In this document: positions 3,769 through 61,847 of the stretch, in pieces
How the letters are laid out: each line of letters starts with the position of its first letter
Numbering within the stretch: the first letter of the stretch is position 1
From: Azolla caroliniana
Lineage: Eukaryota; Plantae; Polypodiophyta
Direction of reading: 5' to 3'
Assembly: GCA_043228905.1 (NCBI GenBank)
Contig: JBHGNT010000016.1
Coordinates: 4,030,001-4,094,000, forward strand
DNA length: 64,000 nucleotides
The notes under the pieces: generated by a model
What the model was told of the DNA's origin: nothing
The model's database searches: none
The model's input: only the letters and a program-made list of their open reading frames with translations
Made by a program: the position numbers and the translations under genes

Positions 3769-4108
3769 AATGACCAAGATGAAAGACGACTATGGGAATT
3801 ACATAAGTCAATCTTCGGTTATGCTTGAGTAGCTGGACTTTGCGCTTTGCAAGCGGGATGCCATCTTCAACAAAGCTCCTCCATGTCTATATTTGAATGC
3901 AGAAAAAGGCTAATAACTTGGAAAGATCTTCTTCAATATCCTCTGGGACAAACGATTCACCAGTGTATAATAAATATGTGGTGCTATTGTTAATGCACTG
4001 CCATGCATAATTCTGAATTGGAGGTAAGGAAATGGAATCTATATTGAGCATCCATAGTTTGACAACACACTAAGCAATTGGAGATAAAGTGTATCAAGAA
4101 GAATCAAT

Positions 4109-4816
4109 TGGAGATGTGGGGTATCATCGGTCCCCATACCTCGAACATGCTAAATGAGCGCTCTACCATTTAAACCACATCCCCTTTGGGAAAGCAAGGG
4201 GAAGTGGTTTCTTGTGCTCCGTTCTTTCACTCCCATTTCATGATGGCAACTTCAATCCATAATTGGGCTTTCACTCCTATTTCATGATGGCAACTTCAAT
4301 CCACAATTGGGCCTTCACTCCTATTTCATGAGGACAACTTCAATCCATAGTTCAACAACATGCTAAGAGATTGGACATGCATACTATCAAGACTCTTGTA
4401 CAATTGGAGATGCAAGGTATCGATCCTTGTACCTCTCGCATGCTAAGCAAGCGCTCTACCATTTGAGCCACATCCCTTTAAGAATTAAGGGTCATCATAG
4501 GACATCAAGACAATTATTTTTTCATGAAACCTATGTGATTTCATCTAAATTTTGGTTCCTTGTGATCATGCATTGTGTGTGCTCTACCATTTGACCTATA
4601 CACCCCCTTTGACAATGGAGAGGGTCATAGAGGATAAGGAGAATTGTTTTGTCGTGACACCTATGTAACTTCAACTAATAATGGTTTCTTGTGCTCCAAC
4701 AATTTCTTATTTATTGATGATGACTTCAGTCCATAGTTTGGCATACTATAAGAGATGCGGGGTATTCATGCATGTGCCTCTCGCATGCTAAGTGAGTGCT
4801 CTGCCATTTGAGCTAC
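4109..4816 (-). pseudogene. Oldest degenerate tRNA-Ala copies (4109-4184, 4405-4477, fragment ~4577-4607, 4751-4816)
   Basis: Recognisable tRNA-Ala body with indels and many substitutions; spacers short and diverged. Confidence 0.8.
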
Positions 4817-4973
4817 TTAAACCTTGAGAATGAAATAATCGTAGAGAAACATACTTTATATTGTCATGGTACCCATACTTCAACTAAATAGTGGTTCGTT
4901 GTGCTTCAATGATTTTAAGGACTCCCTATTGACCGATTGATTGCAATGTATAACACTTGAGCCATGTCTCTTC

Positions 4974-5497
4974 TATTGGGAAACATGTCCCCCGGATGGG
5001 AAGAGAAGAACCGTGTTGGTGAGTATCTCGGCCGAGGCCGAAACTGAAACCGAAATCGTTTCGGAAGACTATAATTGTAATAGTAAAAAATGCCTCCTGG
5101 CGGCTATACTTGTAAATAACCAGAAAGTTGCTTTGATTTATAAGCAACTAGGGCAAACCTTATAGCGAGAGTTAGTGATCATTATTGAAAAGTTAAAACG
5201 AGGTAGTTGCCTCTGTAATCGTGAGTGAGAGAGTGAGAGTGCAACTTTGTGGCCGTCTATCAGACGAAGGAGAAATCAAGGTCGGTGCCTCTGAGTTTCG
5301 TATTTGTACTTCCTCCTGACTTTAGTGATCTGTTTTCTCGGGGTTTGTGGACCCCCGTAGTTTTTCCCATTTCGGGTTTTCCACGCAAAATATCGGTGTC
5401 TCTACGTCTTCACAAATTTTCTTGTCTATGTACTAGTTATTGACTTCTTCACATGAATACGAACGTGAAACCAGTTGTGCCCGGTTGATTCCTAACA
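4974..5497 (+). mobile_element. Solo LTR of a Copia element
   Basis: Ends TATTGGG...CCTAACA (TG..CA decayed); contains GGGTTTTCCACG, shared with the Copia LTR at 28309; near-TSD TCTTC/TTTTC. Confidence 0.75.
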
Positions 5498-5777
5498 TTT
5501 TCTTGGTTTCTGGCTTACTCTTTAATCTTGTGCTCCGATGATTTCAAGGACTCCTTGTTGACCTATTGGTTGGCTTACTCTTTAATCTTGTGCTCCGATG
5601 ATTTCAAGGACTCCTTGTTGACCTATTGGTTGGACTTCTTTCCACTTGAATCATGTCTTCATCACAATCCTACTTCTAGGTTTCTGGCTTACACTTTAAT
5701 TTTGTTGGGTAAACACTCTTCTATTTAAAACGGATGACTTTAATCCATCAAGATGAAGGGTATCAAGATAAACCAAT

Positions 5778-5850
5778 TGGAGATGCAGGGTATCGATCCC
5801 CATACCTCTCGCATGCTAAGCAAGCGCTCTACCATTTGAGCTACATCCCC
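5778..5850 (-). tRNA. tRNA-Ala(AGC), near-intact
   Basis: 73-nt cloverleaf with G3:U70; substitutions give only G-U wobbles. Confidence 0.75.
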
Positions 5851-6297
5851 TTTGACAATGTCAAAATCATACAAATAATTATTTCTTGGTGACACCTATG
5901 TGACTACTAAATAGTGGTTCCTCGTGCACCAATGAATTGAAGGACTCCACATTGTCTTATTGGTTGCAATGCCTTCTACTCGAATGAAGGATTCATAACA
6001 ATCCTACTTCTATGTTTATGGCGTACTCTTTAATCTAGTTTCACATGCATTTCTTGTTTTTAATGATGATGACTTTTATCCTTGATAGTTCGACGACATG
6101 CTAAAAGATTGTGCTCTAATGATTTCAAGGACTCCTTTTGACTTATTGGTTGGAATGCCTTCCACTTGAGCCATGTCTTCATAACAATCTCACTTCTAGG
6201 TTTCTGGCTTACTCTTTAATTTTGTCCTGTAAGCACTCTTCTATTTAAAAAGGATGACTTTAATCCATAAAGATGAAGGGTATCAAGATAAACCAAT

Positions 6298-6370
6298 TGG
6301 AGGTGCAAGGTATCGATCCCCGAAACTCTCGCATGCTAAGCGAGTACTCTACCATTTGAGCTACATCCCC
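6298..6370 (-). pseudogene. tRNA-Ala(AGC), diverged copy
   Basis: 73-nt copy with several stem and variable-loop changes. Confidence 0.7.
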
Positions 6371-6827
6371 TTTGACAATGTCAAAATGATACAAATAATT
6401 ATTTTTTGATGAAACCTATATGACTTTAGTTACTAAATAGTGGTTCCTCGTGCACCAATTAATTCAAGGACTCCACATTGTCCTATTGGTTGCAATGCCT
6501 TCTACTTGAATCAAGGATTCATAACAATCCTACTTCTATGTTTATGGCGTACTCTCTAAGCTAGTTTCACATGCATTTCTTGTTTTTAATGATGATGACT
6601 TTTATCCTTGATAGTTTGACGACATGCTAAAAGATTGTACTCCGATGATTTCAAGGATTCCTTGTTGACCTATTGCTTGGAATGCCTTCCACTTGAGTCA
6701 TGTGTTCATCACAATCCTATTTCTAGGTTTCTGACTCTTTAATTTTGTCCCCTAAGCACTCTCCTATTTAAACATGATGACTTTAATCCATAAAGTCAAA
6801 AGAAGAAGGGTAACAAAATAAACCAAC

Positions 6828-6900
6828 TGGAGATGCGGGGTACCGATCCCTATACATCTCGCAAGCTAAGCGAGGGCTCTACCATTTGAGGTACATCCTC
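6828..6900 (-). pseudogene. tRNA-Ala(AGC), diverged copy
   Basis: 73-nt copy with T-loop, D-stem and acceptor changes. Confidence 0.7.
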
Positions 6901-6957
6901 TTTGACACTATTAAATAGATATAAGTTATTATTTTTTTATGAAACCTATGTGACTAA

Positions 6958-7236
6958 GTTAGAGCCGTAGCTATGAGTGCTACAGATGGTTGAAGGAGAG
7001 GTATGAGTGTTGTTGATACAAGAGCCCCTCTTAGCCTTCCTGTTGGTTAAATTACCCTTGGCCGAATTTTCAATGTCCTTGGCGAACCCGTGGACAATAT
7101 GGATCCTGTGGAAAGTAGTATAAAATTTCTGCTTCACAGGTGCGCTCCAGCTTTTACCCAATTGGATACCAAATTATCTATCTTTGAGACAGGAATTAAG
7201 ATATTAGATCTTTTGGCTCCGTATCACTGAGGCGGA
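6958..7236 (+). pseudogene. atpB: Plastid atpB fragment (NUPT)
   Basis: Translates [45 protein letters not shown]...[33 protein letters not shown], matching chloroplast ATP synthase beta; three stops. Confidence 0.92.
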
Positions 7237-7249
7237 AAAAAAAAAAAAA

Positions 7250-7725
7250 CTTGTTTTCGCTAGATTTATGATGAAGATAATGCATTCATTGGTACATTCG
7301 AGGATGACGAGGACGCATCTTCATTGTATATTAGTTATAGTAGTAATTCTCCGTAAAGAAGTGATCATGAATGTATTTTTGACTATTAAGTATAACTACC
7401 TTCCGCTTGTAACAAATTGAGTAATATAAAAGCATGTGTTTGAAATCTTTTGATTCCTATGAATATCGTTTCTTATAATAAAACATTGATTGTAAAGTTT
7501 GTGATATAAATTAAACCCTAAACTTTTTGAAATTCCTCTTTATTTATTTATTTTAAAATCACGAAAATGGTGGATTTTCAACCTTTTTCATAGTATATTT
7601 GAGAATGTATGATACTGGTATCAATGTGTTTTGTAATATCACTGAAAAAGTACTAAAATCAAACGGAATAATCCTTATCCTTCCATTTATGCGCGATCCT
7701 TCCACTTGTGAACATGAACGTGTTT
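7250..7725 (-). mobile_element. Terminal fragment of the TIR element family seen at 34771-36497
   Basis: Reverse complement of 7670-7725 matches 34771-34825; similarity continues to ~35260. Confidence 0.7.
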
Positions 7726-8938
7726 AGACTATTACAAAGGTTGTTTCATTCCAAATAGTCATGATTCGTGTAGATAGAAATATACTCGAGATTGAGATTC
7801 TTCCTAGGTGTATGACTCAGTCAGCCCCACCAAAGCCGAGCCTTGTAAATCCTCTAAAAAAAAGGATAATTTTTTTGTTTCTATTTGGTAATTCCCCAAA
7901 TTAATTGAAACTTATTCGAATATATGTATATATATATACATTTTTTTCTACATTTCTCTAACTAATCTCTTGTGTATATTAGTGTTCCTTACCATCTACT
8001 TTCGATCTTGAGCGGTCCCTCTAAGAGCTTATATTACGTAACAAACGAGAACACTTCTGGAACAAATGATTAGTCTATCCCTATAACTAATTATAAGAAT
8101 TATTGGATTTTCTGGTAGAGATAACCTGATTCGGGCCTGGCAAAATTGGTTAATGGGGTTCAACACCCAAGGTTGTAGTAGTTGTACTAGTCCCCCCAAT
8201 ACCCAAGATAATATGATTTCCATACCTTCCATAATGAAAAAAAAATTGATTCAGGCAAAAACACATGTTTACCCCATATGATCAGTATTCATGCAAACTA
8301 CTTCGCCCTCCCTTCTAAGTAATGCTATTCCAATCAATTGATCTAAAAGATCTCGATTGTGCTCCATGTATCTAGTTCTTTACGAACAATATTGGTGAAT
8401 CAATCTCAGAGATGTACAAATTCCAAGGTACGCTAGCAATATTGTTTATTCCCTTGTTTCTTGAAAGATAAACTAAATAGTGCTTCCTAATGCAACAATG
8501 AATTCAAGGACTCCACATTGTCCTATTGGTTGCAATGCCTTCTACTCGAATCAAGGATTTCTCATGTACCAATGAATTCACGGACTCCACATTGTCCTAT
8601 TGGTTGCAATGCCTTCTACTCGAATGAAGGATTCATAACAATCCTACTTCTATGTTTATGGCGTACTCTTTAATCTAGTTTCACATGCATTTCTTGTTTT
8701 TAATGATGATGACTTTTATCCTTGATAGTTTGACGACACACGAAAACATTGTGTTACGATGATTTCAAGGACTCCTTGTTGACCTATTGGTTGGAATGCT
8801 TTCCACTTGAGTCATGTCTTCATAAAAATCCTTATTCTAGGTTTTTGGCTTACTTTGAAATTTTGTCCCCTAAACACTTTCCTATTTAAAAATCATGAAT
8901 TTAGTCCATAAAGATGAAGGGTATAAAGATAAACAAAT

Positions 8939-10914
8939 TGCAAATGCGGGGTATCGATCCCCATACCTATCGCATGCTAAGCGAGCGCTCTACCATTCGA
9001 GCAACATCCCCTTTCACAATGATAAAAATTTATTTATTTTTTGAAGAAACCTGTGTGACTTCAGTTACTAAATAGTGGTTCCTCGTGCACCAATGAATTC
9101 AAGGACTCCACATTGTCCTATTTGTTACAATGCCTTCTATTAGATTAAAGGTTTCATAACAATCCTACTTCTATGTTTATGGCATACTCTTTAATCAAGT
9201 TTCACATGCATTTCTTGTTTTTAATAACAATGAATTTTATCCTTGATAGTTTGACGACATGCTAAAACAATGTGTTTCAATGGTTTCAAGGACTCTTTGT
9301 TGACTTATTCGTTGGAATGCCTTCCACTTGAGTCATGTCTTCATAACAATCCTACTTCTACGTTTCTGGCTTACTCTGAAATTTTGTCCCCTAAGCGCTC
9401 TTCTATTTAAAAATAATGACTTTAATCCATAAAGATGAAAGGTATCAAGGTAAACCAATTGGAGATGCGGGGTATCGATCCCCACACCTCTCGCATGCTG
9501 AGCGAGAACTCTACCATTTGAGCTACATCCCCTTTAACAATTCAAAGGCATTGAATACAAATAGTTTTTTGTTGCAGAAACCCATATGACTCCAGATACT
9601 AAATAATGGTGCCTCGTGCATCAATAAATTCAAGGACTCCACATTGTCCTATTGGTTGCAACGCCTTTTACTCAAATCAAGGATTCATAACAATCCTACT
9701 TCTATGTTTATGGAGTACTCTTTAATCTAGTTTCACATGCATTTCTTGTTTTGAATGATGATGGCTTTTATCCTTGATAGTTTGACAACACGCTAAAAAT
9801 TTGTGTTCTGATGATTTCAAGGATTCCTTGTAGACCTATCGCTTGGACTGCCTTCCACTTGAGTCATGTGTTCATCACAATCCTATTTCTAGGTTTCTGT
9901 CCGACTCTTTAATTTTGTCCCCTAAGCACTTTCTTATTTAAAAATGTTGCTTTTAATCCATAGAGATGAAGTGTATCAAGAAAAATGAATTGGAAATGCA
10001 AAGTATCGATCCCCATACCTCTTGCAAGCTAAGCAAGGGCTCTACCATTTGAACTACACCCCCTTTGACAATGTTAAATAGATTGTCAAAACAACCCTAT
10101 GTGACTTCAATTACTAAATAGTGGCTTCCCGTGCAACAATGATTTCAAGGACTCCACATTGTTCTATTGATTGCAATGCCCTCTACTCGAATCAAAGATT
10201 CAAAACAATCCTACTTATATGTTTAAGGCGTACTCTTTAATCTAGTTTCACGGTTATTTCTGATTTTTAATGATGATGACTTTTATTTTTGATAGTTCGA
10301 TGTCATGGTAAAAGATTGTGCTCCGATAATTTCAAGGTCTCCTTGTTGACCTATTGCTTGGAATGCGTTCCATTTAAGTCATGTCTTCATCACAATCCTA
10401 TTTCTAGGTTTTTGACTTACGTTTAATTTTGTCCCCTAAGCTCTCTCCTATTAAAAAATCATGACTTTAATACATAAAGATGCAGTGTATCACGATAAAC
10501 CAATTAGAGATGCAAAGTATCGATCCCTGCACCTCTTGCATGCTAAGCGAATATTCTACCATTTAAGCTACATCCGCTCTAACAATGTTAAAAAGATACA
10601 AATAATTCGCTTCCGCACACGAATACGAACGTGAAACTGGTTGTGGCCAGTCGATTACAAACATTTTCTTGGTTTCTGGTTTACTCTTTAATCTTGTGGT
10701 CCGATGATTTCAAGAACTCCTTGTTGACCTATTGGTTGGAATGCTTTCCACTTGAGTCATGTCTTCATCACAATCCTACTTCTAGGATTCTGGCTTACTC
10801 TTTAATTTAGTCTAGTAAACACTCTTCTATTTAAAAAGGATGACTTTAATCCATGAAGTCAAGATGAAGGGTATCAAGATAAACCAATTGGAGATGCAAG
10901 GTATCAATCCCTGT
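8939..10914 (-). pseudogene. Diverged tRNA-Ala copies at 8939-9011, 9460-9532, 9991-10063, 10505-10577 and truncated 10889-10914
   Basis: Same tRNA body at 384-531 bp spacing, each with private substitutions. Confidence 0.8.
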
Positions 10915-11662
10915 TTGAATGGTGATGGCTTTTTTCTTCGATAGTTCCATGGCACCCTAAAAGATTGTGCTTCGATGTTTTCAAGGAGTCCTTGTTGACC
11001 TATTACTAGGAATGCCTTCCACTTGAGTCATGTGTTCATCACAATCCTACATTTAGGTTTCTCGCTTACTCTTTAATTTTGTCGGCTAAGCACTCTCCTA
11101 TTTAAAAATGATGGCTTAAATCCCTAAAGATGATGGGTATCAAAATAAATGAATTGGAGATGAGGGGTATCGATCCTCGTACCTCACGGATGCTAATCCA
11201 ATGTTTTACCATTTATGTTACATCCGCTTTGAGAGTGTTAAAAAGATACAAGTAATTGGTTTCTGCACTCGAATACGAACGTGAAACCGGTTGTGGCCGG
11301 TCGACTCCTAACATCTTCTTAGTTTCTGGCTTACTCTTTAATCTTGTTCTCTGATGATTTCAAGGACTCCTTGTTGGCCTATTGGTTGGAATGCTTTCCA
11401 CTTGAGTCATGTCTTTATCATAATCCTACATCTAGATTTCTTGCTTACTCTTTAATTTTGTCCTGTAAACACGATGATTTCAAGGACTCCTTGTTGGCCT
11501 ATTGGTTGGAATGCTTTCCACTTGAGTCATGTCTTTATCATAATCCTACATCTAGATTTCTGCCTTACTCTCTAATTTTGTCCTGTAAACACTGTTCTAT
11601 TTAAAAAGGATGACTTTAATCCCTAAAGTCAAGATGAAGGGTATCATCTAAGATAAACCAAT

Positions 11663-11735
11663 TGGAGATGCAAGGTATCGATCCCCGTACCTCTCGCATG
11701 CTAAGCGAGCGCTCTACCATTTGAGCTACATCCCC
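11663..11735 (-). tRNA. tRNA-Ala(AGC), A copy
   Basis: Full cloverleaf, A and B boxes, G3:U70, two G-U pairs in T stem; CAA and AT-rich box upstream. Confidence 0.88.
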
Positions 11736-12696
11736 TTTGAAAATGTCAAAATGATACAAATAATTATTTCCTGTGAAACCTATGTGACTTCAGTTACTAA
11801 ATAGTGGTTTCGTGTGCACCAATGAATTCTAGTACTCCACATTGTCCTCTTGGTTTCCATGCCTTGTACTGAAATGAAGGATTCATAATATTCCGACTTC
11901 TATGTTTATGGCGTAGTCTTTAATCTAGTTTCACATTCATTTCTTGTTTTGAATGGTGATGGCTTTTTTCTTCGATAGTTCCATGGCACCCTAAAAGATT
12001 GTGCTTCGATGTTTTCAAGGAGTCCTTGTTGACCTATTACTAGGAATGCCTTCCACTTGAGTCATGTGTTCATCACAATCCTACATTTAGGTTTCTCGCT
12101 TACTCTTTAATTTTGTCGGCTAAGCACTCTCCTATTTAAAAATGATGGCTTAAATCCCTAAAGATGATGGGTATCAAAATAAATGAATTGGAGATGAGGG
12201 GTATCGATCCTCGTACCTCACGGATGCTAATCCAATGTTTTACCATTTATGTTACATCCGCTTTGAGAGTGTTAAAAAGATACAAGTAATTGGTTTCTGC
12301 ACTCGAATACGAACGTGAAACCGGTTGTGGCCGGTCGACTCCTAACATCTTCTTAGTTTCTGGCTTACTCTTTAATCTTGTTCTCTGATGATTTCAAGGA
12401 CTCCTTGTTGGCCTATTGGTTGGAATGCTTTCCACTTGAGTCATGTCTTTATCATAATCCTACATCTAGATTTCTTGCTTACTCTTTAATTTTGTCCTGT
12501 AAACACGATGATTTCAAGGACTCCTTGTTGGCCTATTGGTTGGAATGCTTTCCACTTGAGTCATGTCTTTATCATAATCCTACATCTAGATTTCTGCCTT
12601 ACTCTCTAATTTTGTCTTGTAAACACTGTTCTATTTAAAAAGGATGACTTTAATCCCTAAAGTCAAGATGAAGGGTATCATCTAAGATAAACCAAT

Positions 12697-12769
12697 TGGA
12701 GATGCAAGGTATCGATCCCCGTACCTCTCGCATGCTAAGCGAGCGCTCTACCATTTGAGCTACATCCCC
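12697..12769 (-). tRNA. tRNA-Ala(AGC), A copy
   Basis: Identical to 11663-11735. Confidence 0.88.
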
Positions 12770-13730
12770 TTTGAAAATGTCAAAATGATACAAATAATTA
12801 TTTCCTGTGAAACCTATGTGACTTCAGTTACTAAATAGTGGTTTCGTGTGCACCAATGAATTCTAGTACTCCACATTGTCCTCTTGGTTTCCATGCCTTG
12901 TACTGAAATGAAGGATTCATAATATTCCGACTTCTATGTTTATGGCGTAGTCTTTAATCTAGTTTCACATTCATTTCTTGTTTTGAATGGTGATGGCTTT
13001 TTTCTTCGATAGTTCCATGGCACCCTAAAAGATTGTGCTTCGATGTTTTCAAGGAGTCCTTGTTGACCTATTACTAGGAATGCCTTCCACTTGAGTCATG
13101 TGTTCATCACAATCCTACATTTAGGTTTCTCGCTTACTCTTTAATTTTGTCGGCTAAGCACTCTCCTATTTAAAAATGATGGCTTAAATCCCTAAAGATG
13201 ATGGGTATCAAAATAAATGAATTGGAGATGAGGGGTATCGATCCTCGTACCTCACGGATGCTAATCCAATGTTTTACCATTTATGTTACATCCGCTTTGA
13301 GAGTGTTAAAAAGATACAAGTAATTGGTTTCTGCACTCGAATACGAACGTGAAACCGGTTGTGGCCGGTCGACTCCTAACATCTTCTTAGTTTCTGGCTT
13401 ACTCTTTAATCTTGTTCTCTGATGATTTCAAGGACTCCTTGTTGGCCTATTGGTTGGAATGCTTTCCACTTGAGTCATGTCTTTATCATAATCCTACATC
13501 TAGATTTCTTGCTTACTCTTTAATTTTGTCCTGTAAACACGATGATTTCAAGGACTCCTTGTTGGCCTATTGGTTGGAATGCTTTCCACTTGAGTCATGT
13601 CTTTATCATAATCCTACATCTAGATTTCTGCCTTACTCTCTAATTTTGTCCTGTAAACACTGTTCTATTTAAAAAGGATGACTTTAATCCCTAAAGTCAA
13701 GATGAAGGGTATCATCTAAGATAAACCAAT

Positions 13731-13803
13731 TGGAGATGCAAGGTATCGATCCCCGTACCTCTCGCATGCTAAGCGAGCGCTCTACCATTTGAGCTACATC
13801 CCC
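13731..13803 (-). tRNA. tRNA-Ala(AGC), A copy
   Basis: Identical to 11663-11735. Confidence 0.88.
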
Positions 13804-14764
13804 TTTGAAAATGTCAAAATGATACAAATAATTATTTCCTGTGAAACCTATGTGACTTCAGTTACTAAATAGTGGTTTCGTGTGCACCAATGAATTCTAG
13901 TACTCCACATTGTCCTCTTGGTTTCCATGCCTTGTACTGAAATGAAGGATTCATAATATTCCGACTTCTATGTTTATGGCGTAGTCTTTAATCTAGTTTC
14001 ACATTCATTTCTTGTTTTGAATGGTGATGGCTTTTTTCTTCGATAGTTCCATGGCACCCTAAAAGATTGTGCTTCGATGTTTTCAAGGAGTCCTTGTTGA
14101 CCTATTACTAGGAATGCCTTCCACTTGAGTCATGTGTTCATCACAATCCTACATTTAGGTTTCTCGCTTACTCTTTAATTTTGTCGGCTAAGCACTCTCC
14201 TATTTAAAAATGATGGCTTAAATCCCTAAAGATGATGGGTATCAAAATAAATGAATTGGAGATGAGGGGTATCGATCCTCGTACCTCACGGATGCTAATC
14301 CAATGTTTTACCATTTATGTTACATCCGCTTTGAGAGTGTTAAAAAGATACAAGTAATTGGTTTCTGCACTCGAATACGAACGTGAAACCGGTTGTGGCC
14401 GGTCGACTCCTAACATCTTCTTAGTTTCTGGCTTACTCTTTAATCTTGTTCTCTGATGATTTCAAGGACTCCTTGTTGGCCTATTGGTTGGAATGCTTTC
14501 CACTTGAGTCATGTCTTTATCATAATCCTACATCTAGATTTCTTGCTTACTCTTTAATTTTGTCCTGTAAACACGATGATTTCAAGGACTCCTTGTTGGC
14601 CTATTGGTTGGAATGCTTTCCACTTGAGTCATGTCTTTATCATAATCCTACATCTAGATTTCTGCCTTACTCTCTAATTTTGTCCTGTAAACACTGTTCT
14701 ATTTAAAAAGGATGACTTTAATCCCTAAAGTCAAGATGAAGGGTATCATCTAAGATAAACCAAT

Positions 14765-14837
14765 TGGAGATGCAAGATATCGATCCCCGTACCTCTCGCA
14801 TGCTAAGCGAGCGCTCTACCATTTGAGCTACATCCCC
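14765..14837 (-). tRNA. tRNA-Ala(AGC), A copy with C61>T B-box variant
   Basis: Plus strand reads gcaagatatcg instead of gcaaggtatcg. Confidence 0.7.
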
Positions 14838-15798
14838 TTTGAAAATGTCAAAATGATACAAATAATTATTTCCTGTGAAACCTATGTGACTTCAGTTACT
14901 AAATAGTGGTTTCGTGTGCACCAATGAATTCTAGTACTCCACATTGTCCTCTTGGTTTCCATGCCTTGTACTGAAATGAAGGATTCATAATATTCCGACT
15001 TCTATGTTTATGGCGTAGTCTTTAATCTAGTTTCACATTCATTTCTTGTTTTGAATGGTGATGGCTTTTTTCTTCGATAGTTCCATGGCACCCTAAAAGA
15101 TTGTGCTTCGATGTTTTCAAGGAGTCCTTGTTGACCTATTACTAGGAATGCCTTCCACTTGAGTCATGTGTTCATCACAATCCTACATTTAGGTTTCTCG
15201 CTTACTCTTTAATTTTGTCGGCTAAGCACTCTCCTATTTAAAAATGATGGCTTAAATCCCTAAAGATGATGGGTATCAAAATAAATGAATTGGAGATGAG
15301 GGGTATCGATCCTCGTACCTCACGGATGCTAATCCAATGTTTTACCATTTATGTTACATCCGCTTTGAGAGTGTTAAAAAGATACAAGTAATTGGTTTCT
15401 GCACTCGAATACGAACGTGAAACCGGTTGTGGCCGGTCGACTCCTAACATCTTCTTAGTTTCTGGCTTACTCTTTAATCTTGTTCTCTGATGATTTCAAG
15501 GACTCCTTGTTGGCCTATTGGTTGGAATGCTTTCCACTTGAGTCATGTCTTTATCATAATCCTACATCTAGATTTCTTGCTTACTCTTTAATTTTGTCCT
15601 GTAAACACGATGATTTCAAGGACTCCTTGTTGGCCTATTGGTTGGAATGCTTTCCACTTGAGTCATGTCTTTATCATAATCCTACATCTAGATTTCTGCC
15701 TTACTCTCTAATTTTGTCCTGTAAACACTGTTCTATTTAAAAAGGATGACTTTAATCCCTAAAGTCAAGATGAAGGGTATCATCTAAGATAAACCAAT

Positions 15799-15871
15799 TG
15801 GAGATGCAAGGTATCGATCCCCGTACCTCTCGCATGCTAAGCGAGCGCTCTACCATTTGAGCTACATCCCC
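15799..15871 (-). tRNA. tRNA-Ala(AGC), A copy
   Basis: Identical to 11663-11735. Confidence 0.88.
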
Positions 15872-16832
15872 TTTGAAAATGTCAAAATGATACAAATAAT
15901 TATTTCCTGTGAAACCTATGTGACTTCAGTTACTAAATAGTGGTTTCGTGTGCACCAATGAATTCTAGTACTCCACATTGTCCTCTTGGTTTCCATGCCT
16001 TGTACTGAAATGAAGGATTCATAATATTCCGACTTCTATGTTTATGGCGTAGTCTTTAATCTAGTTTCACATTCATTTCTTGTTTTGAATGGTGATGGCT
16101 TTTTTCTTCGATAGTTCCATGGCACCCTAAAAGATTGTGCTTCGATGTTTTCAAGGAGTCCTTGTTGACCTATTACTAGGAATGCCTTCCACTTGAGTCA
16201 TGTGTTCATCACAATCCTACATTTAGGTTTCTCGCTTACTCTTTAATTTTGTCGGCTAAGCACTCTCCTATTTAAAAATGATGGCTTAAATCCCTAAAGA
16301 TGATGGGTATCAAAATAAATGAATTGGAGATGAGGGGTATCGATCCTCGTACCTCACGGATGCTAATCCAATGTTTTACCATTTATGTTACATCCGCTTT
16401 GAGAGTGTTAAAAAGATACAAGTAATTGGTTTCTGCACTCGAATACGAACGTGAAACCGGTTGTGGCCGGTCGACTCCTAACATCTTCTTAGTTTCTGGC
16501 TTACTCTTTAATCTTGTTCTCTGATGATTTCAAGGACTCCTTGTTGGCCTATTGGTTGGAATGCTTTCCACTTGAGTCATGTCTTTATCATAATCCTACA
16601 TCTAGATTTCTTGCTTACTCTTTAATTTTGTCCTGTAAACACGATGATTTCAAGGACTCCTTGTTGGCCTATTGGTTGGAATGCTTTCCACTTGAGTCAT
16701 GTCTTTATCATAATCCTACATCTAGATTTCTGCCTTACTCTCTAATTTTGTCCTGTAAACACTGTTCTATTTAAAAAGGATGACTTTAATCCCTAAAGTC
16801 AAGATGAAGGGTATCATCTAAGATAAACCAAT

Positions 16833-16905
16833 TGGAGATGCAAGGTATCGATCCCCGTACCTCTCGCATGCTAAGCGAGCGCTCTACCATTTGAGCTACA
16901 TCCCC
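16833..16905 (-). tRNA. tRNA-Ala(AGC), A copy
   Basis: Identical to 11663-11735. Confidence 0.88.
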
Positions 16906-17866
16906 TTTGAAAATGTCAAAATGATACAAATAATTATTTCCTGTGAAACCTATGTGACTTCAGTTACTAAATAGTGGTTTCGTGTGCACCAATGAATTCT
17001 AGTACTCCACATTGTCCTCTTGGTTTCCATGCCTTGTACTGAAATGAAGGATTCATAATATTCCGACTTCTATGTTTATGGCGTAGTCTTTAATCTAGTT
17101 TCACATTCATTTCTTGTTTTGAATGGTGATGGCTTTTTTCTTCGATAGTTCCATGGCACCCTAAAAGATTGTGCTTCGATGTTTTCAAGGAGTCCTTGTT
17201 GACCTATTACTAGGAATGCCTTCCACTTGACTCATGTGTTCATCACAATCCTACATTTAGGTTTCTCGCTTACTCTTTAATTTTGTCGGCTAAGCACTCT
17301 CCTATTTAAAAATGATGGCTTAAATCCCTAAAGATGATGGGTATCAAAATAAATGAATTGGAGATGAGGGGTATCGATCCTCGTACCTCACGGATGCTAA
17401 TCCAATGTTTTACCATTTATGTTACATCCGCTTTGAGAGTGTTAAAAAGATACAAGTAATTGGTTTCTGCACTCGAATACGAACGTGAAACCGGTTGTGG
17501 CCGGTCGACTCCTAACATCTTCTTAGTTTCTGGCTTACTCTTTAATCTTGTTCTCTGATGATTTCAAGGACTCCTTGTTGGCCTATTGGTTGGAATGCTT
17601 TCCACTTGAGTCATGTCTTTATCATAATCCTACATCTAGATTTCTTGCTTACTCTTTAATTTTGTCCTGTAAACACGATGATTTCAAGGACTCCTTGTTG
17701 GCCTATTGGTTGGAATGCTTTCCACTTGAGTCATGTCTTTATCATAATCCTACATCTAGATTTCTGCCTTACTCTCTAATTTTGTCTTGTAAACACTGTT
17801 CTATTTAAAAAGGATGACTTTAATCCCTAAAGTCAAGATGAAGGGTATCATCTAAGATAAACCAAT

Positions 17867-17939
17867 TGGAGATGCAAGGTATCGATCCCCGTACCTCTCG
17901 CATGCTAAGCGAGCGCTCTACCATTTGAGCTACATCCCC
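17867..17939 (-). tRNA. tRNA-Ala(AGC), A copy
   Basis: Identical to 11663-11735. Confidence 0.88.
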
Positions 17940-18900
17940 TTTGAAAATGTCAAAATGATACAAATAATTATTTCCTGTGAAACCTATGTGACTTCAGTTA
18001 CTAAATAGTGGTTTCGTGTGCACCAATGAATTCTAGTACTCCACATTGTCCTCTTGGTTTCCATGCCTTGTACTGAAATGAAGGATTCATAATATTCCGA
18101 CTTCTATGTTTATGGCGTAGTCTTTAATCTAGTTTCACATTCATTTCTTGTTTTGAATGGTGATGGCTTTTTTCTTCGATAGTTCCATGGCACCCTAAAA
18201 GATTGTGCTTCGATGTTTTCAAGGAGTCCTTGTTGACCTATTACTAGGAATGCCTTCCACTTGAGTCATGTGTTCATCACAATCCTACATTTAGGTTTCT
18301 CGCTTACTCTTTAATTTTGTCGGCTAAGCACTCTCCTATTTAAAAATGATGGCTTAAATCCCTAAAGATGATGGGTATCAAAATAAATGAATTGGAGATG
18401 AGGGGTATCGATCCTCGTACCTCACGGATGCTAATCCAATGTTTTACCATTTATGTTACATCCGCTTTGAGAGTGTTAAAAAGATACAAGTAATTGGTTT
18501 CTGCACTCGAATACGAACGTGAAACCGGTTGTGGCCGGTCGACTCCTAACATCTTCTTAGTTTCTGGCTTACTCTTTAATCTTGTTCTCTGATGATTTCA
18601 AGGACTCCTTGTTGGCCTATTGGTTGGAATGCTTTCCACTTGAGTCATGTCTTTATCATAATCCTACATCTAGATTTCTTGCTTACTCTTTAATTTTGTC
18701 CTGTAAACACGATGATTTCAAGGACTCCTTGTTGGCCTATTGGTTGGAATGCTTTCCACTTGAGTCATGTCTTTATCATAATCCTACATCTAGATTTCTG
18801 CCTTACTCTCTAATTTTGTCCTGTAAACACTGTTCTATTTAAAAAGGATGACTTTAATCCCTAAAGTCAAGATGAAGGGTATCATCTAAGATAAACCAAT

Positions 18901-18973
18901 TGGAGATGCAAGGTATCGATCCCCGTACCTCTCGCATGCTAAGCGAGCGCTCTACCATTTGAGCTACATCCCC
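18901..18973 (-). tRNA. tRNA-Ala(AGC), A copy
   Basis: Identical to 11663-11735. Confidence 0.88.
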
Positions 18974-19934
18974 TTTGAAAATGTCAAAATGATACAAATA
19001 ATTATTTCCTGTGAAACCTATGTGACTTCAGTTACTAAATAGTGGTTTCGTGTGCACCAATGAATTCTAGTACTCCACATTGTCCTCTTGGTTTCCATGC
19101 CTTGTACTGAAATGAAGGATTCATAATATTCCGACTTCTATGTTTATGGCGTAGTCTTTAATCTAGTTTCACATTCATTTCTTGTTTTGAATGGTGATGG
19201 CTTTTTTCTTCGATAGTTCCATGGCACCCTAAAAGATTGTGCTTCGATGTTTTCAAGGAGTCCTTGTTGACCTATTACTAGGAATGCCTTCCACTTGACT
19301 CATGTGTTCATCACAATCCTACATTTAGGTTTCTCGCTTACTCTTTAATTTTGTCGGCTAAGCACTCTCCTATTTAAAAATGATGGCTTAAATCCCTAAA
19401 GATGATGGGTATCAAAATAAATGAATTGGAGATGAGGGGTATCGATCCTCGTACCTCACGGATGCTAATCCAATGTTTTACCATTTATGTTACATCCGCT
19501 TTGAGAGTGTTAAAAAGATACAAGTAATTGGTTTCTGCACTCGAATACGAACGTGAAACCGGTTGTGGCCGGTCGACTCCTAACATCTTCTTAGTTTCTG
19601 GCTTACTCTTTAATCTTGTTCTCTGATGATTTCAAGGACTCCTTGTTGGCCTATTGGTTGGAATGCTTTCCACTTGAGTCATGTCTTTATCATAATCCTA
19701 CATCTAGATTTCTTGCTTACTCTTTAATTTTGTCCTGTAAACACGATGATTTCAAGGACTCCTTGTTGGCCTATTGGTTGGAATGCTTTCCACTTGAGTC
19801 ATGTCTTTATCATAATCCTACATCTAGATTTCTGCCTTACTCTCTAATTTTGTCTTGTAAACACTGTTCTATTTAAAAAGGATGACTTTAATCCCTAAAG
19901 TCAAGATGAAGGGTATCATCTAAGATAAACCAAT

Positions 19935-20007
19935 TGGAGATGCAAGGTATCGATCCCCGTACCTCTCGCATGCTAAGCGAGCGCTCTACCATTTGAGCTA
20001 CATCCCC
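19935..20007 (-). tRNA. tRNA-Ala(AGC), A copy
   Basis: Identical to 11663-11735. Confidence 0.88.
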
Positions 20008-20968
20008 TTTGAAAATGTCAAAATGATACAAATAATTATTTCCTGTGAAACCTATGTGACTTCAGTTACTAAATAGTGGTTTCGTGTGCACCAATGAATT
20101 CTAGTACTCCACATTGTCCTCTTGGTTTCCATGCCTTGTACTGAAATGAAGGATTCATAATATTCCGACTTCTATGTTTATGGCGTAGTCTTTAATCTAG
20201 TTTCACATTCATTTCTTGTTTTGAATGGTGATGGCTTTTTTCTTCGATAGTTCCATGGCACCCTAAAAGATTGTGCTTCGATGTTTTCAAGGAGTCCTTG
20301 TTGACCTATTACTAGGAATGCCTTCCACTTGAGTCATGTGTTCATCACAATCCTACATTTAGGTTTCTCGCTTACTCTTTAATTTTGTCGGCTAAGCACT
20401 CTCCTATTTAAAAATGATGGCTTAAATCCCTAAAGATGATGGGTATCAAAATAAATGAATTGGAGATGAGGGGTATCGATCCTCGTACCTCACGGATGCT
20501 AATCCAATGTTTTACCATTTATGTTACATCCGCTTTGAGAGTGTTAAAAAGATACAAGTAATTGGTTTCTGCACTCGAATACGAACGTGAAACCGGTTGT
20601 GGCCGGTCGACTCCTAACATCTTCTTAGTTTCTGGCTTACTCTTTAATCTTGTTCTCTGATGATTTCAAGGACTCCTTGTTGGCCTATTGGTTGGAATGC
20701 TTTCCACTTGAGTCATGTCTTTATCATAATCCTACATCTAGATTTCTTGCTTACTCTTTAATTTTGTCCTGTAAACACGATGATTTCAAGGACTCCTTGT
20801 TGGCCTATTGGTTGGAATGCTTTCCACTTGAGTCATGTCTTTATCATAATGCTTTCCACTTCTAGGATTCTGGCTTAGTCTTTAAGTTAGTCTGGTAAAC
20901 ACTCTTCTATTTAAAAAGGATGACTTTAATCCATAAAGTCAAGATGAAGGGTATCAAGATAAACCAAT

Positions 20969-21950
20969 TGGAGATGCAAGGTATCGATCCCCGAACCTCT
21001 CGCATGCTAAGCGAACGCTCTACCATTTGAGCTACATACTTTGACAATGTCAAAATGATACAAATAATTATTTCCTGATGAAACCTATGTGACTTCAGTT
21101 ACTAAATAGTGGTTCTGCGTGCACCAATGAATTCAAGGACTCTAGATTGTCCTCTTATTTTCCATGCCTTCTACTAAAATCAAGGATTCATAATAATCCT
21201 AGTTCTATGTTTCTGGTGTACTCTTTAATCTAGTTTCACATTCATTTCTTGTTTTGGATGATGATGGCTTTTTTCTTTTATAGTTCCATGGCACACTAAA
21301 ATATTGGGTTCTGATGTTTTCAAGGTGTCTTTGTTGACCTATTACTAGGAATGCCTTCCACTTGAGTCATGTATTCATCACAATCCTACATTTAGGTTTC
21401 TGTCTTACTCTTTAATTTTGTCCGCTAAGCACTCTCCTATTTAAAAATGATGGCTTTAATCCCTAAAGATGAAGGTTATCAAAATAAACCAATTGGATAT
21501 GAGGGGTATTGATCCTCGTACCTCACGCATGCTAATCTAGTGTTTTACCATTTATGTTACATCCGCTTTGACAGTGTTAAAAAGATACAAATAATTGGCT
21601 TCTACACACGAACACGAACGTCAAACCGGTTGTGGCCAGTCGACTCCTAACATCTTCTTGGTTTCTGGCTTACTCTTTAATCTTGTTCTTTGATGATTTC
21701 AAGTACTCCTTGTTGGCCTATTGGCTGGAATGCTTTCCACTTGAGTCATGTCTTCATCACAATCCTACTTCTAGGATTATGGCTTACTCTTTAATCTCGT
21801 CTGGTAAACACTCTTCTATTTAAAAAAGATGACTTTAATCCATAACGTCAAGATGAAGGGTATCATGATAAACCATTTGGAGATGAAGGGTATCGATTCC
21901 CATACCTCTCGCATGTTAAGTGAGCGCTCTACCATTTGAGCTATATCCCC
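20969..21950 (-). pseudogene. Right-flank diverged tRNA-Ala copies: 20969-21039, 21494-21566, 21878-21950 (last has anticodon AAC)
   Basis: Same body with acceptor deletion, B-type decay and anticodon change respectively. Confidence 0.8.
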
Positions 21951-22793
21951 TTTGACAATGTCAAAATGATACAAATAATTATTTCTTGATGAAACCTATG
22001 TGACTTCAATTAGTAAATAGTGGTTCCGCGTTGTTGCGTTTCTACGCGCGTGCGTGGAGAAACGAGGCGGGACCACCGGGGTCTTGGACCGAAGAACACG
22101 TGATAGGAAGGGAAAGAGAAAGAGAGAGACGACCGGTAACGTATGAGCAAGAAACACAGGGACACGGCCCGTCAATGCAGAAAACACGAATGGACATAGA
22201 GATAGAGAGACACGAATGTTTGTATATTAACAGATGACACCAAAAACAACAGAGCACGCGAGCGGTTACAACCGAACAGGCCGGCGAACAGATACCGATG
22301 CCTGCTCGTCTGCGCACGAAAGAGGATTGGATGGAGGTGCGGTCGGAAGCACACGGGCATTCCTCGAAGCAGCGCGAGCCTCCCGAAATCCTGCAGAGAA
22401 GAGTGACGGAGAATGAACAGAGGAGAAGCGTTCGGTTACAGTCTGACAGCACTTCGTCCTCCTCAATACGCGATACCTTTCTCCCTGCGTCTCCCTCTCC
22501 TTTATAGCGTCAAGAAGGGAGCCGTCTCCCTCATTTACTTCCTACCTACCGAATCTAACTACCCAGGATATGCCTTTGTACTTAATTCCCTATTATATAC
22601 ATTGAAAGGCATGCACATGCGAAGAGCCGGTTCACGCGCGCTATGTACCGTTTGCGGCAAGGGACGGTTTTCTTCACAACATCCGCCCCCACCTAACCGT
22701 GCATCTACCGGTGTGCGCCAAAATTGCACTCTGGTTGGAGAAAACCGTTCCGGGTTCCGGTTCCTCGTTCATCGGTTCGTCCCCCGTCTCGGA

Positions 22794-33649: not shown

Positions 33650-34770
33650 GTCGGTGCCCTCGCGCGCGCTCACTATCTGGTCCACGGCCGAAGCCATGGC
33701 CTCTGCAAGATCCGACCCCCTCATCTTCTGCTCCTCTGCCGCCTTGTTCACGTCGGGTTCACCAAATATGTCGTGTTGCTACGCGCGTGCGTGGAGAAAC
33801 GAGGCGGGACCACCGGGGTCTTGGACCGAAGAACACGTGATAGGAAGGGAAAGAGAAAGAGAGAGACGACCGGTAACGTATGAGAAAGAAACACAGGGAC
33901 ACGGCCCGTCAACGCAGAAAACACGAATGGACACAGAGACAGAGAGACACGAATGTTTGTATATTAACAGATGACACCAAAAACAACAGAGCACGCGAGC
34001 GGTTACAACCGAACAGGCTGGCGAACAGATACCAATGCCTGCTCATCTGCGCACGAAAGGGGATAGGATGGAGGTGCTGCCGGAAGCACACGGGCATTCC
34101 TCCAAGCAGCGCGAGCCTCCCGAAATCCTACAGAGAAGAGCGACGGAGAATGAACAGAGGAGAAGCGTTCGGTGAAAGTCCGACAGCACTTCGTCCTCCT
34201 CAATACGTGATACCTTTCTCCCTGCGTCTCCCTCTCCTTTATAGCGTCAAGAAGGGAGCCGTCTCCCTCATTTACTTCCTACCTACCGAATCTAACTACC
34301 CAGGATATGCTTTGTACTTAATTCCCTATTATATACATTGAAGGGCGCGCACGCGCGAAGAGCCGGTTCACGCGCGCTATGCACCGTTTGCGCCAAGGGA
34401 CGGTTTTCTTCACGACAGCGTGCACCAATGAATTCATGGATTCCACATTGTCCTATTGATTGCCATGCCTTCTACTCGAATCAAGGTTTCATAACAATCC
34501 TACTTTTATGTTTATGGTGTACTCTTTAATCTAGTTTCACATGCACTTCTTGTTTTTAATGATGTTGGCTTTTTTCCTTGGTAGTTCGATGACATGCTAA
34601 AAGATTGTGCTCCAAAGGTTTCATGGACTCCTTGTTGGCCTATTGCTTGGAATGCCTTCCGCTTGAGTCATTTCTTCATAACAACCCTATTGCTAGGTTT
34701 CTGGCCTTTACTTTAATTTTGTCCCCTAAGCATTGTCCTATTTGAAAATGATGGGTTTAATCAATAGTGA

Positions 34771-36497: not shown

Positions 36498-36520
36498 GAA
36501 AGGTATCAAGATAAACCAAT

Positions 36521-36593
36521 TGGAGATGTAGGGTATCAATCCTCATACCTTTCGCATGCTAAGCGAGCGCTCTATCATTTGAGCTACATTCCC
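36521..36593 (-). pseudogene. tRNA-Ala(AGC), diverged copy (array continues past Gypsy A)
   Basis: 73-nt body with array flanks; B-box and D-loop mutations. Confidence 0.78.
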
Positions 36594-36677
36594 TTTCACA
36601 ATGTTAAATAGAGTATAGTAAGAATTGTTTTTTCATGAGAGTTCAAGGAAATAGTGGTTCCATGTGCACCAATGAAT

Positions 36678-44646: not shown

Positions 44647-44680
<34 letters not shown>

Positions 44681-54586: not shown

Positions 54587-54686
54587 CTCTCTCTCCCGCG
54601 CACTGTGTGTGTCCAACCTTTCCATTAAACCTGTGTTTTCCTTACGTTCGGTTTTCTGTTGCTTCCGCACATTGTTCCTTTTAACA

Positions 54687-57645: not shown

Positions 57646-57647
57646 AG

Positions 57648-58222
57648 CCCTTGTACCTCTTTCATGCTAAGTGAGCTCTACCATTTGAGCCACATCTCCC
57701 ACGACATCGGGAGATGTCATATGGGCATAAAGAGGTATTTTTTCCTGACACTTATTTGACTTCATCACTTGTGCCCCAAGGCCTAATCTTACATCAAATA
57801 GGTGTGACCTAAGTCACATGGAAACAATGGTTAGGATGGTGCAACATATATGTAGTATAACGTCTAAAGTGAGCCTCCACATTTTTCCCATGTCATGATA
57901 CATCGGCATTGCAAAAAGCCTCATTCACAAAGGAATTTATTGATGTATCATGAAGCAAGTATGTGCCTTTTGGATCGTTTTTCTTGTTTCCCATGGGATT
58001 TTAGGAAGTACATGTAATGGATTTTTTTGAACATTAAACATATTGTGGTGTGCATGTGTTCCTTTGTGCCGCCCTTTTAGCACACCCTGTTTAGCTAAGC
58101 CAACCCAAATGGGTACATTTGTATCAACTATAAATTGAGTAAGAAGTAAGAAGCTAAGTAGGTTGGTTTTGATCTCTTATGTGCATTTCACATATTGGTG
58201 GAGATGCAGGGTACCAATCCCC
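57648..58222 (-). pseudogene. tRNA-Ala fragments at 57648-57699 and 58199-58222
   Basis: cccttgtacctct...taccatttgagccacatctcc and tggagatgcagggtaccaatcccc match the array tRNA. Confidence 0.7.
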
Positions 58223-61763: not shown

Positions 61764-61847
61764 ATACCTTCTCCCTGTCCAAAAGTCGAAAGAAACGGAT
61801 CTTTACTGCTTGTAATCGTCGTGGTAGCTTACGCGGTAGGGGGTGGA

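What the first reader, a model, noticed from the sequence alone, without database searches (positions are those of the whole stretch)
4109..22031. tRNA-Ala(AGC) gene array organised like a satellite with a higher-order repeat
Seen: over 30 co-oriented tRNA-Ala copies on a ~520-bp monomer, with a core of ~9.6 near-identical 1034-bp dimers. Each dimer pairs one structurally intact gene (A/B boxes, G3:U70, upstream CAA and AT-rich box, downstream T5) with one broken gene. Known: plant tRNA clusters exist (Arabidopsis Pro and Tyr-Tyr-Ser), and Entamoeba uses tRNA arrays structurally. Inference: a gene/pseudogene HOR puts a TFIIIC B box every ~500 bp, so the locus may act as a boundary, heterochromatin or centromere-like domain, or as a tRNA/tRF dosage locus. 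I do not recall such a tRNA-Ala HOR being described.
Basis: partly seen in the sequence, partly recalled or inferred. Interest (0 to 1): 0.85.

Follow-up and report, generated by a model that had tools for sequence, protein, structure and literature searches.

The report
Decaying tRNA-Ala array, recently re-amplified
This is a real but ordinary plant cluster of over 30 alanine tRNA gene copies, mostly decayed and broken up by transposons, in which one 1-kb piece holding one intact-looking and one broken gene was likely copied about ten times very recently by unequal recombination, much like clusters already described in maize and Arabidopsis.

Summary
In detail: 34 co-oriented tRNA-Ala(AGC)-derived copies (32 near full length) lie in 4109-21950, with a core of 9.6 units of 1034 bp that differ at only 3 sites. 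Public contigs show the amplified unit in a second study, at depth ratios of about 15, 7-10 and 3 in three samples, so it is not an assembly artefact and likely varies in copy number. The unit is not two monomers: it is one monomer with the broken gene, a 67-bp tail of an old solo LTR, and a half monomer with the intact-looking gene. Old copies decay as fast as their spacers (9.9% vs 8.4%), with CG/CHG transition bias, and the array is invaded by LTR elements and plastid DNA and continues beyond 22031. Best reading: a probably silenced, largely neutral tRNA cluster turning over by unequal crossing-over. Tandem tRNA-Ala(AGC) arrays are already tabulated in maize, and Arabidopsis SYY has a homogeneous core with decayed flanks. 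Two weak hints (amplified gene unchanged since its clade split; B boxes somewhat spared) leave function open. The scan's earlier notes show no such finding on other DNA.

The parts
4079..4973 (-). Most degenerate left end of the array: tRNA-Ala copies at 4109, 4405, 4750, a partial copy near 4533 and spacer remnants
4974..5497 (+). Old solo LTR, likely Copia-type, inserted into a monomer spacer; its 3' tail is later captured in the 1034-bp unit
   Evidence: termini and 5-bp flanking duplication read from sequence; 38-bp match to the Copia LTRs, E 4.6e-6; high summed depth and loose ends at the tail's end
5498..6956 (-). Half monomer with gene 5778-5850 and two full ~520-bp monomers (genes 6298-6370, 6828-6900)
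6957..8471 (+). Insertion into a monomer that begins with a broken chloroplast-type atpB fragment (about 6960-7230); the rest is AT-rich and unassigned
   Evidence: best PDB match chloroplast ATP synthase beta, E 5.3e-24; monomer positions 1-56 left and 56 onward right of it; no Pfam hit for 5 of 5 short frames
8472..10913 (-). Diverged monomers with genes 8939, 9460, 9991, 10505, then LTR tail and a truncated copy ending at 10913
10914..20850 (-). Core: 9.61 near-identical 1034-bp units (3 variant columns)
   Evidence: contig depth
11155..11227 (-). Gene B, first of 10 copies at 1034-bp pitch: tRNA-Ala pseudogene, 14 changes, 9 of 21 pairs broken, B box intact
11247..11313 (+). 67-bp 3' tail of the solo LTR inside each unit, replacing gene B's upstream flank beyond about -20
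   Evidence: (11 differences in 68 bp to 5431-5498)
11353..11592 (.). 120-bp tandem duplication inside each unit (3 differences in 120 bp)
   Evidence: joint present in 3 of 4 runs laid
11663..11735 (-). Gene A, first of 9 copies at 1034-bp pitch: cloverleaf-compatible tRNA-Ala(AGC) with two extra G-U pairs in the T stem; first T run of 4 or more at +56
20851..22031 (-). Older sister copies of the unit halves (A' 20969, damaged at its 5' end; B' 21494) and gene 21878
   Evidence: 8.7% divergence from the unit
22032..34417 (-). Gypsy LTR retrotransposon inserted into a monomer (4-bp target duplication; LTRs 4.5% diverged), with a nested Copia at 28309-33649 (5-bp target duplication; LTRs 0.5% diverged)
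34418..34793 (-). Array spacer resumes exactly where the Gypsy element cut it
   Evidence: monomer positions 1-75 left and 73-419 right of the element
36497..36682 (-). Further monomer piece with decayed gene 36521-36593, cut by a second Gypsy fragment
57628..57767 (-). Distant decayed tRNA-Ala remnant whose upstream flank resembles that of the 4405 copy

Best explanation
This is an old tandem cluster of one tRNA-Ala(AGC) gene in a land plant, whose copies have mostly decayed and been invaded by transposons and plastid DNA, and in which a 1034-bp patchwork unit was likely amplified very recently by unequal crossing-over, probably under DNA methylation and probably without selection for function. 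Shown: monomer structure, gene decay, insertions, unit anatomy, near-identity of the units, different depth ratios between samples. Inferred order: (1) a gene plus ~450 bp of flank was duplicated head to tail; (2) copies mutated, with CG and CHG transitions enriched; (3) a solo LTR, plastid DNA and later a Gypsy and a Copia element inserted; (4) a deletion joined one gene's upstream flank to the LTR tail and its half monomer, making a two-gene unit that was copied a few times (sisters now 9-13% apart); (5) a 120-bp duplication arose; (6) the unit expanded to about ten copies here and still changes in number. Inferred state: silenced in most tissues, as shown for Arabidopsis clusters; gene A would likely be transcribable if released.
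For: Gene vs spacer divergence from consensus 72/730 vs 308/3649, Fisher p=0.22 (10 segments); private changes 26/899 vs 115/2915 (13 segments). Transition rates in spacers: CG 0.206, CHG 0.156, CHH 0.065, A/T 0.023. Only 4 of 13 independent copies audited besides their core sisters have no broken stem pair and are not partial (5778, 9460, 9991, A), and all 13 carry at least 2 changes. The unit contains an LTR tail and a half monomer. Variants are shared between non-adjacent units (one column in units 2, 7, 9; another in 7, 9), as expected of stepwise duplication; 0 of 200,000 random placements did this. Depth of matching contigs, unit over neighbouring single monomer: 1067-1100/71.9 in X1, 26.7-32.3/3.1-4.0 in X5, 36.8-40.9/13.1 in X3 (table 8). 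One of the three core variants hits B-box position 61 of a gene A copy. Published parallels: unequal crossing-over and likely neutral drift for the Arabidopsis triplet array (PMC2886086); methylation and silencing of clusters despite intact cis-elements (PMC7544208); copy-number variation of the Cys cluster (PMC10701932 abstract).
Against: Gene A has 0 of 73 changes against its clade majority while its flanks have 14 of 244 (one-sided Fisher p=0.023, post hoc, uncorrected; the private-change version gives p=0.15), and it is the least changed of 13 copies. B-box positions show 6 changes against 13.2 expected from spacer rates (Poisson p=0.022, one of three regions tested, copies not independent). 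The Arabidopsis SYY cluster, earlier read as neutral, is switched on in root cap cells and its deletion has an effect on a transgenic glycoprotein (PMC12308677 abstract), so decay at the edges does not prove lack of function. Methylation and silencing are inferred from mutation bias only. Contig depth is a rough measure, X5 is shallow, and X1 may be the assembly's own sample.
Confidence: 0.72

Rival explanations
1. Gene A is a live, selected gene, and the amplification raises the dose of a marked tRNA-Ala(AGC) variant (or its fragments), perhaps in one tissue, as with the Arabidopsis SYY cluster; gene B and the LTR tail ride along.
For: Gene A keeps all 21 stem pairs, both boxes, anticodon, G3:U70, upstream CAA and A+T box; no change since its clade split against 14/244 in flanks; it is the gene inside the amplified unit; SYY precedent (PMC12308677).
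Against: T arm is weakened (-2.4 vs -5.9 kcal/mol in copies with the ancestral stem); terminator 56 nt away; the statistic is post hoc, and copy 5778 is nearly as clean without being amplified; 1 of 9 copies already has a B-box change; depth ratios vary from about 3 to 15.
Confidence: 0.17
2. The array is kept as a row of TFIIIC-binding B boxes that acts as a chromatin boundary or nuclear anchor, whether or not tRNA is made.
For: 18 of 19 core copies and 9 of 13 independent copies keep the B box, including broken gene B; B-box changes are fewer than expected (p=0.022); a human tRNA VNTR has been proposed as a boundary (PMC4041453 abstract).
Against: Other AT-rich loop windows are as little changed (9-nt sums of 3-7 in the D and anticodon loops against 6); both sides of the array are transposon-rich with no host gene recognised in 18 long frames scanned, so no boundary is apparent; the array tolerates a 12-kb insertion; the human case rests on CTCF.
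Confidence: 0.06
3. The unit is a nascent centromeric satellite with an alpha-satellite-like higher-order repeat.
For: Homogeneous core, diverged edges and retrotransposon neighbours.
Against: About 10 kb here and at most about 15 kb by depth; the unit is a deletion patchwork; tRNA genes are depleted from plant centromeres (PMC13437025, PMC13578239, passages).
Confidence: 0.02
4. The near-identical core is an assembly over-expansion of one or two units.
For: Units are 99.9% identical; no long reads were seen.
Against: Exact-match contigs over the unit are 15-fold (X1) and 7-10-fold (X5, another study) deeper than the neighbouring monomer, and both runs hold the head-to-tail junction; variants are shared between units in a pattern.
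Confidence: 0.02

Closest known systems
Maize chr4 tRNA-Ala(AGC) homoclusters (PMC13437025, section 10 and supplement 5 rows)
   Same: Same anticodon, co-oriented tandem copies: 10, 19 and 9 genes in 4.16, 9.29 and 3.42 kb, uniform flanks.
   Different: Pitch about 372 bp; the table lists only high-confidence genes, so pseudogenes are not shown (gaps of about 2 and 4 pitches occur); unrelated lineage and presumably independent origin; sequences were not compared.
Arabidopsis Ser-Tyr-Tyr (SYY) array (PMC2886086 abstract, Results part 1, Conclusion; PMC12308677 abstract, section 7; PMC7544208 abstract, Discussion part 1)
   Same: Multi-gene unit repeated in tandem, expansion in steps of one or more units, homogeneous core with more variants and pseudogenes at the flanks, variant classes biased by position in the unit, heterochromatic.
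   Different: Two isotypes, mostly intact genes, 27 units, kept in two species, shown expression in root cap; here one isotype, strict intact/broken alternation, an LTR tail in the unit, far heavier decay.
Arabidopsis tRNA-Cys cluster, chr5 (PMC10701932, abstract)
   Same: About 0.4-kb units, pseudogene present, transposon sequence within, unit number varies between accessions.
   Different: Only about four genes; Helitron rather than LTR; no higher-order unit.
Phytophthora infestans tRNA tandem arrays (PMC9584435, passages)
   Same: Satellite-like arrays with 513-nt monomers and 850-nt dimers, read-depth validated, ascribed to unequal crossing-over.
   Different: Oomycete; hundreds of copies; dimers join different tRNAs; genome-wide habit.
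Human 1q23.3 tRNA VNTR (PMC4041453, abstract)
   Same: tRNA-bearing unit with variable copy number; proposed boundary.
   Different: 7.3-kb GC-rich unit, CTCF site, tRNA genes conserved to mouse while the spacer is not; here genes decay as fast as spacers.
Alpha-satellite higher-order repeats (recalled, not read)
   Same: Diverged sub-units inside a near-identical larger unit; diverged monomers at the edges.
   Different: Kilobases instead of megabases; unit is not an integer number of monomers; no evidence of centromere function.

Membership tests
Plant tRNA gene homocluster (>=5 genes within 5 kb, one isotype; PMC13437025) | At least 5 genes within 5 kb | tested here: met
   Five ARAGORN-called genes span 11663-15871 (4.2 kb); 13 called in all
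Plant tRNA gene homocluster | Single isotype, co-oriented | tested here: met
   All 37 hits on the - strand; 13 of 13 ARAGORN calls are Ala(AGC)
Plant tRNA gene homocluster | Flanks duplicated with the gene (tandem, not retroposed copies) | tested here: met
   Whole ~520-bp monomers align at 83-88%; no poly(A) tail or added CCA after position 73
Silenced heterochromatic tRNA cluster (PMC7544208) | High DNA methylation and H3K9me2 | tested here: inconclusive
   Only indirect: CG and CHG transitions 3- and 2.4-fold above CHH in spacers; no methylome or ChIP
Silenced heterochromatic tRNA cluster | No mature tRNA from clustered copies | not testable with these tools
   No tRNA-seq data could be examined
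Functional tRNA-Ala gene (gene A) | Cloverleaf, A and B boxes, anticodon, G3:U70 | tested here: met
   21 of 21 pairs, 3 of them G-U; Rfam 55.3 bits
Functional tRNA-Ala gene (gene A) | T run of 4 or more within +1..+25 | tested here: not met
   First such run at +56; PMC13437025 section 7 notes that non-angiosperm land plants often lack one in that window
Functional tRNA-Ala gene (gene A) | Purifying selection relative to flanks | tested here: inconclusive
   0/73 vs 14/244, p=0.023 post hoc; 0/73 vs 7/239, p=0.15
Satellite higher-order repeat (definition recalled) | Units far more alike than their sub-units | tested here: met
   Units 99.9% alike; genes A and B differ at 16 of 73 positions
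Satellite higher-order repeat (definition recalled) | Unit made of whole monomers | tested here: not met
   One whole monomer + LTR tail + half monomer with 120-bp duplication
Centromeric satellite | CENH3 binding and very long array | not testable with these tools
   No ChIP; length about 10-15 kb argues against
tRNA-derived SINE | Dispersed copies with A-rich or simple-repeat tail and target duplication | tested here: not met
   Copies share upstream as well as downstream flanks and lie head to tail; dispersal in the genome not testable, no genome held

The most novel reading that the evidence does not exclude
The array is a birth-and-death system caught in the act: one surviving, selected tRNA-Ala gene was re-amplified inside a unit built from a pseudogene and an LTR tail, and unit number (about 3 to 15 between samples) sets the dose of a sequence-marked tRNA variant or of TFIIIC sites. 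That would give a natural copy-number series for testing whether plant tRNA clusters are adaptive hubs or by-products, which PMC13578239 (passage) names as unresolved.
Probability: 0.15. Interest if true: 0.6.

Novelty: new member of a known kind. Interest (0 to 1): 0.27.

Why it matters
As it stands it extends a known class, tandem tRNA-Ala(AGC) clusters, to another plant lineage and gives an unusually clear record of how such clusters age: insertions with intact target duplications, deletion junctions and a fresh expansion can all be ordered. It also shows how pseudogene filtering hides higher-order structure in tRNA surveys. If gene A proves to be expressed, the T-stem variant and the natural spread of copy number would make the locus a ready test of tRNA dosage in plants. 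I found no paper describing a strict intact/broken same-anticodon dimer with an LTR tail in eight searches, but this is a detail of local history rather than a new kind of system.

Tried and rejected
No whole genome is held, so the genome-wide spacer search and the count of dispersed tRNA-Ala genes could not be done. No RNA holder was listed among 14 runs; this says nothing on expression. Contigs were laid only on 10090-11470 (4 of the 14 runs); there is no read or contig evidence over gene A itself, so whether other samples share its sequence is open. No listed contig bridged the left junction at 10913/10914, but the listing was cut. A 24-nt spacer motif found 0 matches in metagenome contigs. 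The Copia protein search gave plant relatives at about 50-56% among the best named ones and did not fix the lineage; earlier AI notes disagree between fern and moss, left unresolved. The monomer tree had 1 well-supported fork of 11 (B with B'), so the clade used for the gene A test is only weakly supported (80/89). Minimum-free-energy folds matched the cloverleaf for 0 of 9 copies, so folding was used only for the T-arm energy. Pfam found nothing for 5 of 5 short frames in the plastid-like insert. PMC7290008 held nothing relevant. SINE origin and assembly artefact were considered and rejected (see above). tRNAscan-SE was not available.
Full report
1. Observation. A core gene used as nhmmer query finds 37 hits in the window, all on the - strand; 34 lie in 4109-21950 (32 near full length, 2 partial), and the others are at 36521, 57628 and a weak 24-nt match at 58199. 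ARAGORN accepts 13 as tRNA-Ala(AGC) and Rfam 18. Sequence repeats at lag 1034 from 10914 to 20850, 9.61 units, with 6 variant calls at 3 columns.

2. Anatomy of the unit. Aligning a plain monomer (5851-6370) to the window shows that each unit is one whole 525-bp monomer carrying gene B (83% identity), then about 20 bp of B's upstream flank, a 67-bp foreign piece, and the 3' half of a monomer with a 120-bp duplication, carrying gene A. The foreign piece matches the end of a 524-bp insert at 4974-5497 that has LTR-like ends, a 5-bp flanking duplication and a short match to the Copia LTRs in the window. In public contigs this piece has summed depth 15,082 against about 1,100 beside it, and many contigs leave the stretch exactly at its end, some into a sequence resembling a Copia primer-binding site (motif recalled). 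So it is the tail of a common LTR family. The same tail-plus-half-monomer junction occurs at 10597 and 21586, 12% and 8% diverged from the unit over about 200 bp. The two-gene layout is therefore older than the present amplification and was likely made by a deletion that joined one gene's upstream flank to the LTR tail. The monomer spacer itself holds an older ~187-bp internal repeat at about 75% identity.

3. Surroundings. The array is interrupted by a 1.5-kb insert beginning with a broken chloroplast-type atpB fragment (6957-8471) and by a Gypsy element (22032-34417) with a 4-bp target duplication and LTRs 4.5% apart, itself holding a Copia element with LTRs 0.5% apart. The spacer resumes at 34418 at the matching monomer position, another monomer piece follows at 36497-36682, and a remnant lies at 57628. 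Of 18 long frames scanned, 11 hit retrotransposon Pfam families and 7 hit nothing. The host is a land plant; its lineage was not fixed.

4. State of the genes. Against a pairing-based ancestor, gene A differs at 2 positions (63, 64), turning two T-stem pairs to G-U; these changes are shared with several older copies. Gene B differs at 14, with 9 of 21 pairs broken. The other 11 independent copies differ at 3 to 15 positions. Pooled over 10 segments, genes diverge 9.9% and spacers 8.4% from consensus (p=0.22); transitions in spacers run at 0.206 in CG, 0.156 in CHG, 0.065 in CHH and 0.023 at A/T. This is the pattern of methylated DNA decaying without selection (inference). Two results point the other way. 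Gene A has 0 of 73 changes against its clade majority while its flanks have 14 of 244 (p=0.023, post hoc; p=0.15 by private changes; clade support only 80/89). B-box positions show 6 changes against 13.2 expected (p=0.022; A box 10 vs 13.1; rest 90 vs 84.8), although other loop windows are as quiet. Gene A's T arm is predicted at -2.4 kcal/mol against -5.9 for the ancestral stem, its first T run is at +56, and one of its nine copies has a change at B-box position 61.

5. Is the core real? Nine of 14 listed runs from 4 studies hold part of 9050-12400, eight of organism A and one of organism B. Four were laid on 10090-11470. Taking single contigs from table 8: in X1 exact-match contigs have depth 71.9 on the single monomer and 1067-1100 on the unit (about 15-fold); in X5, another study, 3.1-4.0 and 26.7-32.3 (7- to 10-fold, shallow data); in X3, 13.1 and 36.8-40.9 with 1-5 differences (about 3-fold). 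X1 and X5 show the head-to-tail junction at 10914; X1, X3 and X5 show the 120-bp duplication, X9 does not list it. X9 (organism B) has contigs 90-99% alike to the monomers and one with 1 difference in 106 bp beside the LTR tail, so the family is shared with that organism. The tool warns that contig depth is no copy number, and X1 may be the assembly's own sample; the ratios are rough. They still exclude over-expansion and suggest copy-number variation. Within the window one variant is in units 2, 7 and 9 and another in 7 and 9, which fits duplication of two units at once; random placement never gave this in 200,000 trials. At 0.06% variation the expansion looks younger than the Copia insertion, if rates are equal and conversion is slight.

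6. Mechanism. Most likely (0.72): an old tRNA-Ala cluster, methylated and mostly silent, that turns over by unequal crossing-over, with the 1034-bp unit its latest wave. Rivals: selected dosage of gene A (0.17), TFIIIC boundary (0.06), nascent centromere (0.02), artefact (0.02). Expression, methylation and chromatin are untested.

7. Known systems. PMC13437025 (passages, sections 7 and 10, supplement 5 rows) lists maize chr4 tRNA-Ala(AGC) homoclusters of 10, 19 and 9 genes at about 372-bp pitch and reports depletion of tRNA genes from centromeres; PMC13578239 (passages) agrees and calls the function of clusters unresolved. PMC2886086 (abstract, Results part 1, Conclusion) explains the Arabidopsis triplet array by unequal crossing-over, with multi-unit steps, non-functional genes at the ends and likely neutral drift. 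PMC7544208 (abstract, Discussion part 1) shows clusters silent and methylated despite intact cis-elements. PMC12308677 (abstract, section 7) describes a homogeneous core, pseudogene-rich flanks, position-biased variants and root-cap expression. PMC10701932 (abstract), PMC9584435 (passages) and PMC4041453 (abstract) give copy-number-variable, dimeric and boundary-type tRNA arrays. PMC11700998 and PMC12652284 (passages) added no Ala(AGC) array. Entamoeba arrays were seen only in a search listing. Eight searches found no strict intact/broken same-anticodon dimer; subscription papers and bioRxiv supplements were not searchable, and published tables drop pseudogenes, so such cases may be hidden. 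The scan's own notes show nothing similar near this place, by sequence or by words.

8. Verdict. Interest 0.27; about 0.6 if gene A proves to be an expressed, dose-variable gene (probability about 0.15).

Noticed in passing
window 22682-22700: The Gypsy element that cuts the array has a G-rich purine tract next to its 3' LTR on the - strand (read by eye), so it does not look like the tract-less Gypsy family that other notes on this genome describe.
   Followed up: no
window 28309-33649: Young Copia element: one open 1371-aa frame, LTRs with 3 differences in 612 bp, 5-bp target duplication; best database relative 68%.
   Followed up: partly
window 35372-35806: AT-rich 435-bp inverted repeat (76% self-complementary), MITE-like, inside a 1.7-kb insert that separates two array pieces.
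   Followed up: no
window 36683-41291: Second, truncated Gypsy copy 83-87% alike to the first, joined directly to an array monomer without an LTR.
   Followed up: no
window 44648-48825 and 50440-54592: Two LINE-like copies in inverted orientation, 90% alike over 4.2 kb; the right one has an open 1249-aa endonuclease and reverse transcriptase frame.
   Followed up: no
window 61764-63554: 596-aa open frame on the + strand with no Pfam hit, next to a 180-bp (TATT)n run.
   Followed up: no
window 7231-8471: AT-rich remainder of the plastid-like insert is unassigned; no Pfam hit for its short frames.
   Followed up: partly
PMC13437025 supplement 5, cluster Zma_chr4_2: The maize tRNA-Ala(AGC) coordinates show a 1,464-bp gap twice, 2,582 bp apart, which may mark a higher-order duplication with filtered-out pseudogenes (my inference from coordinates only).
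   Followed up: no
window 3280-3773: 219-bp direct duplication at 97% identity just left of the array.
   Followed up: no
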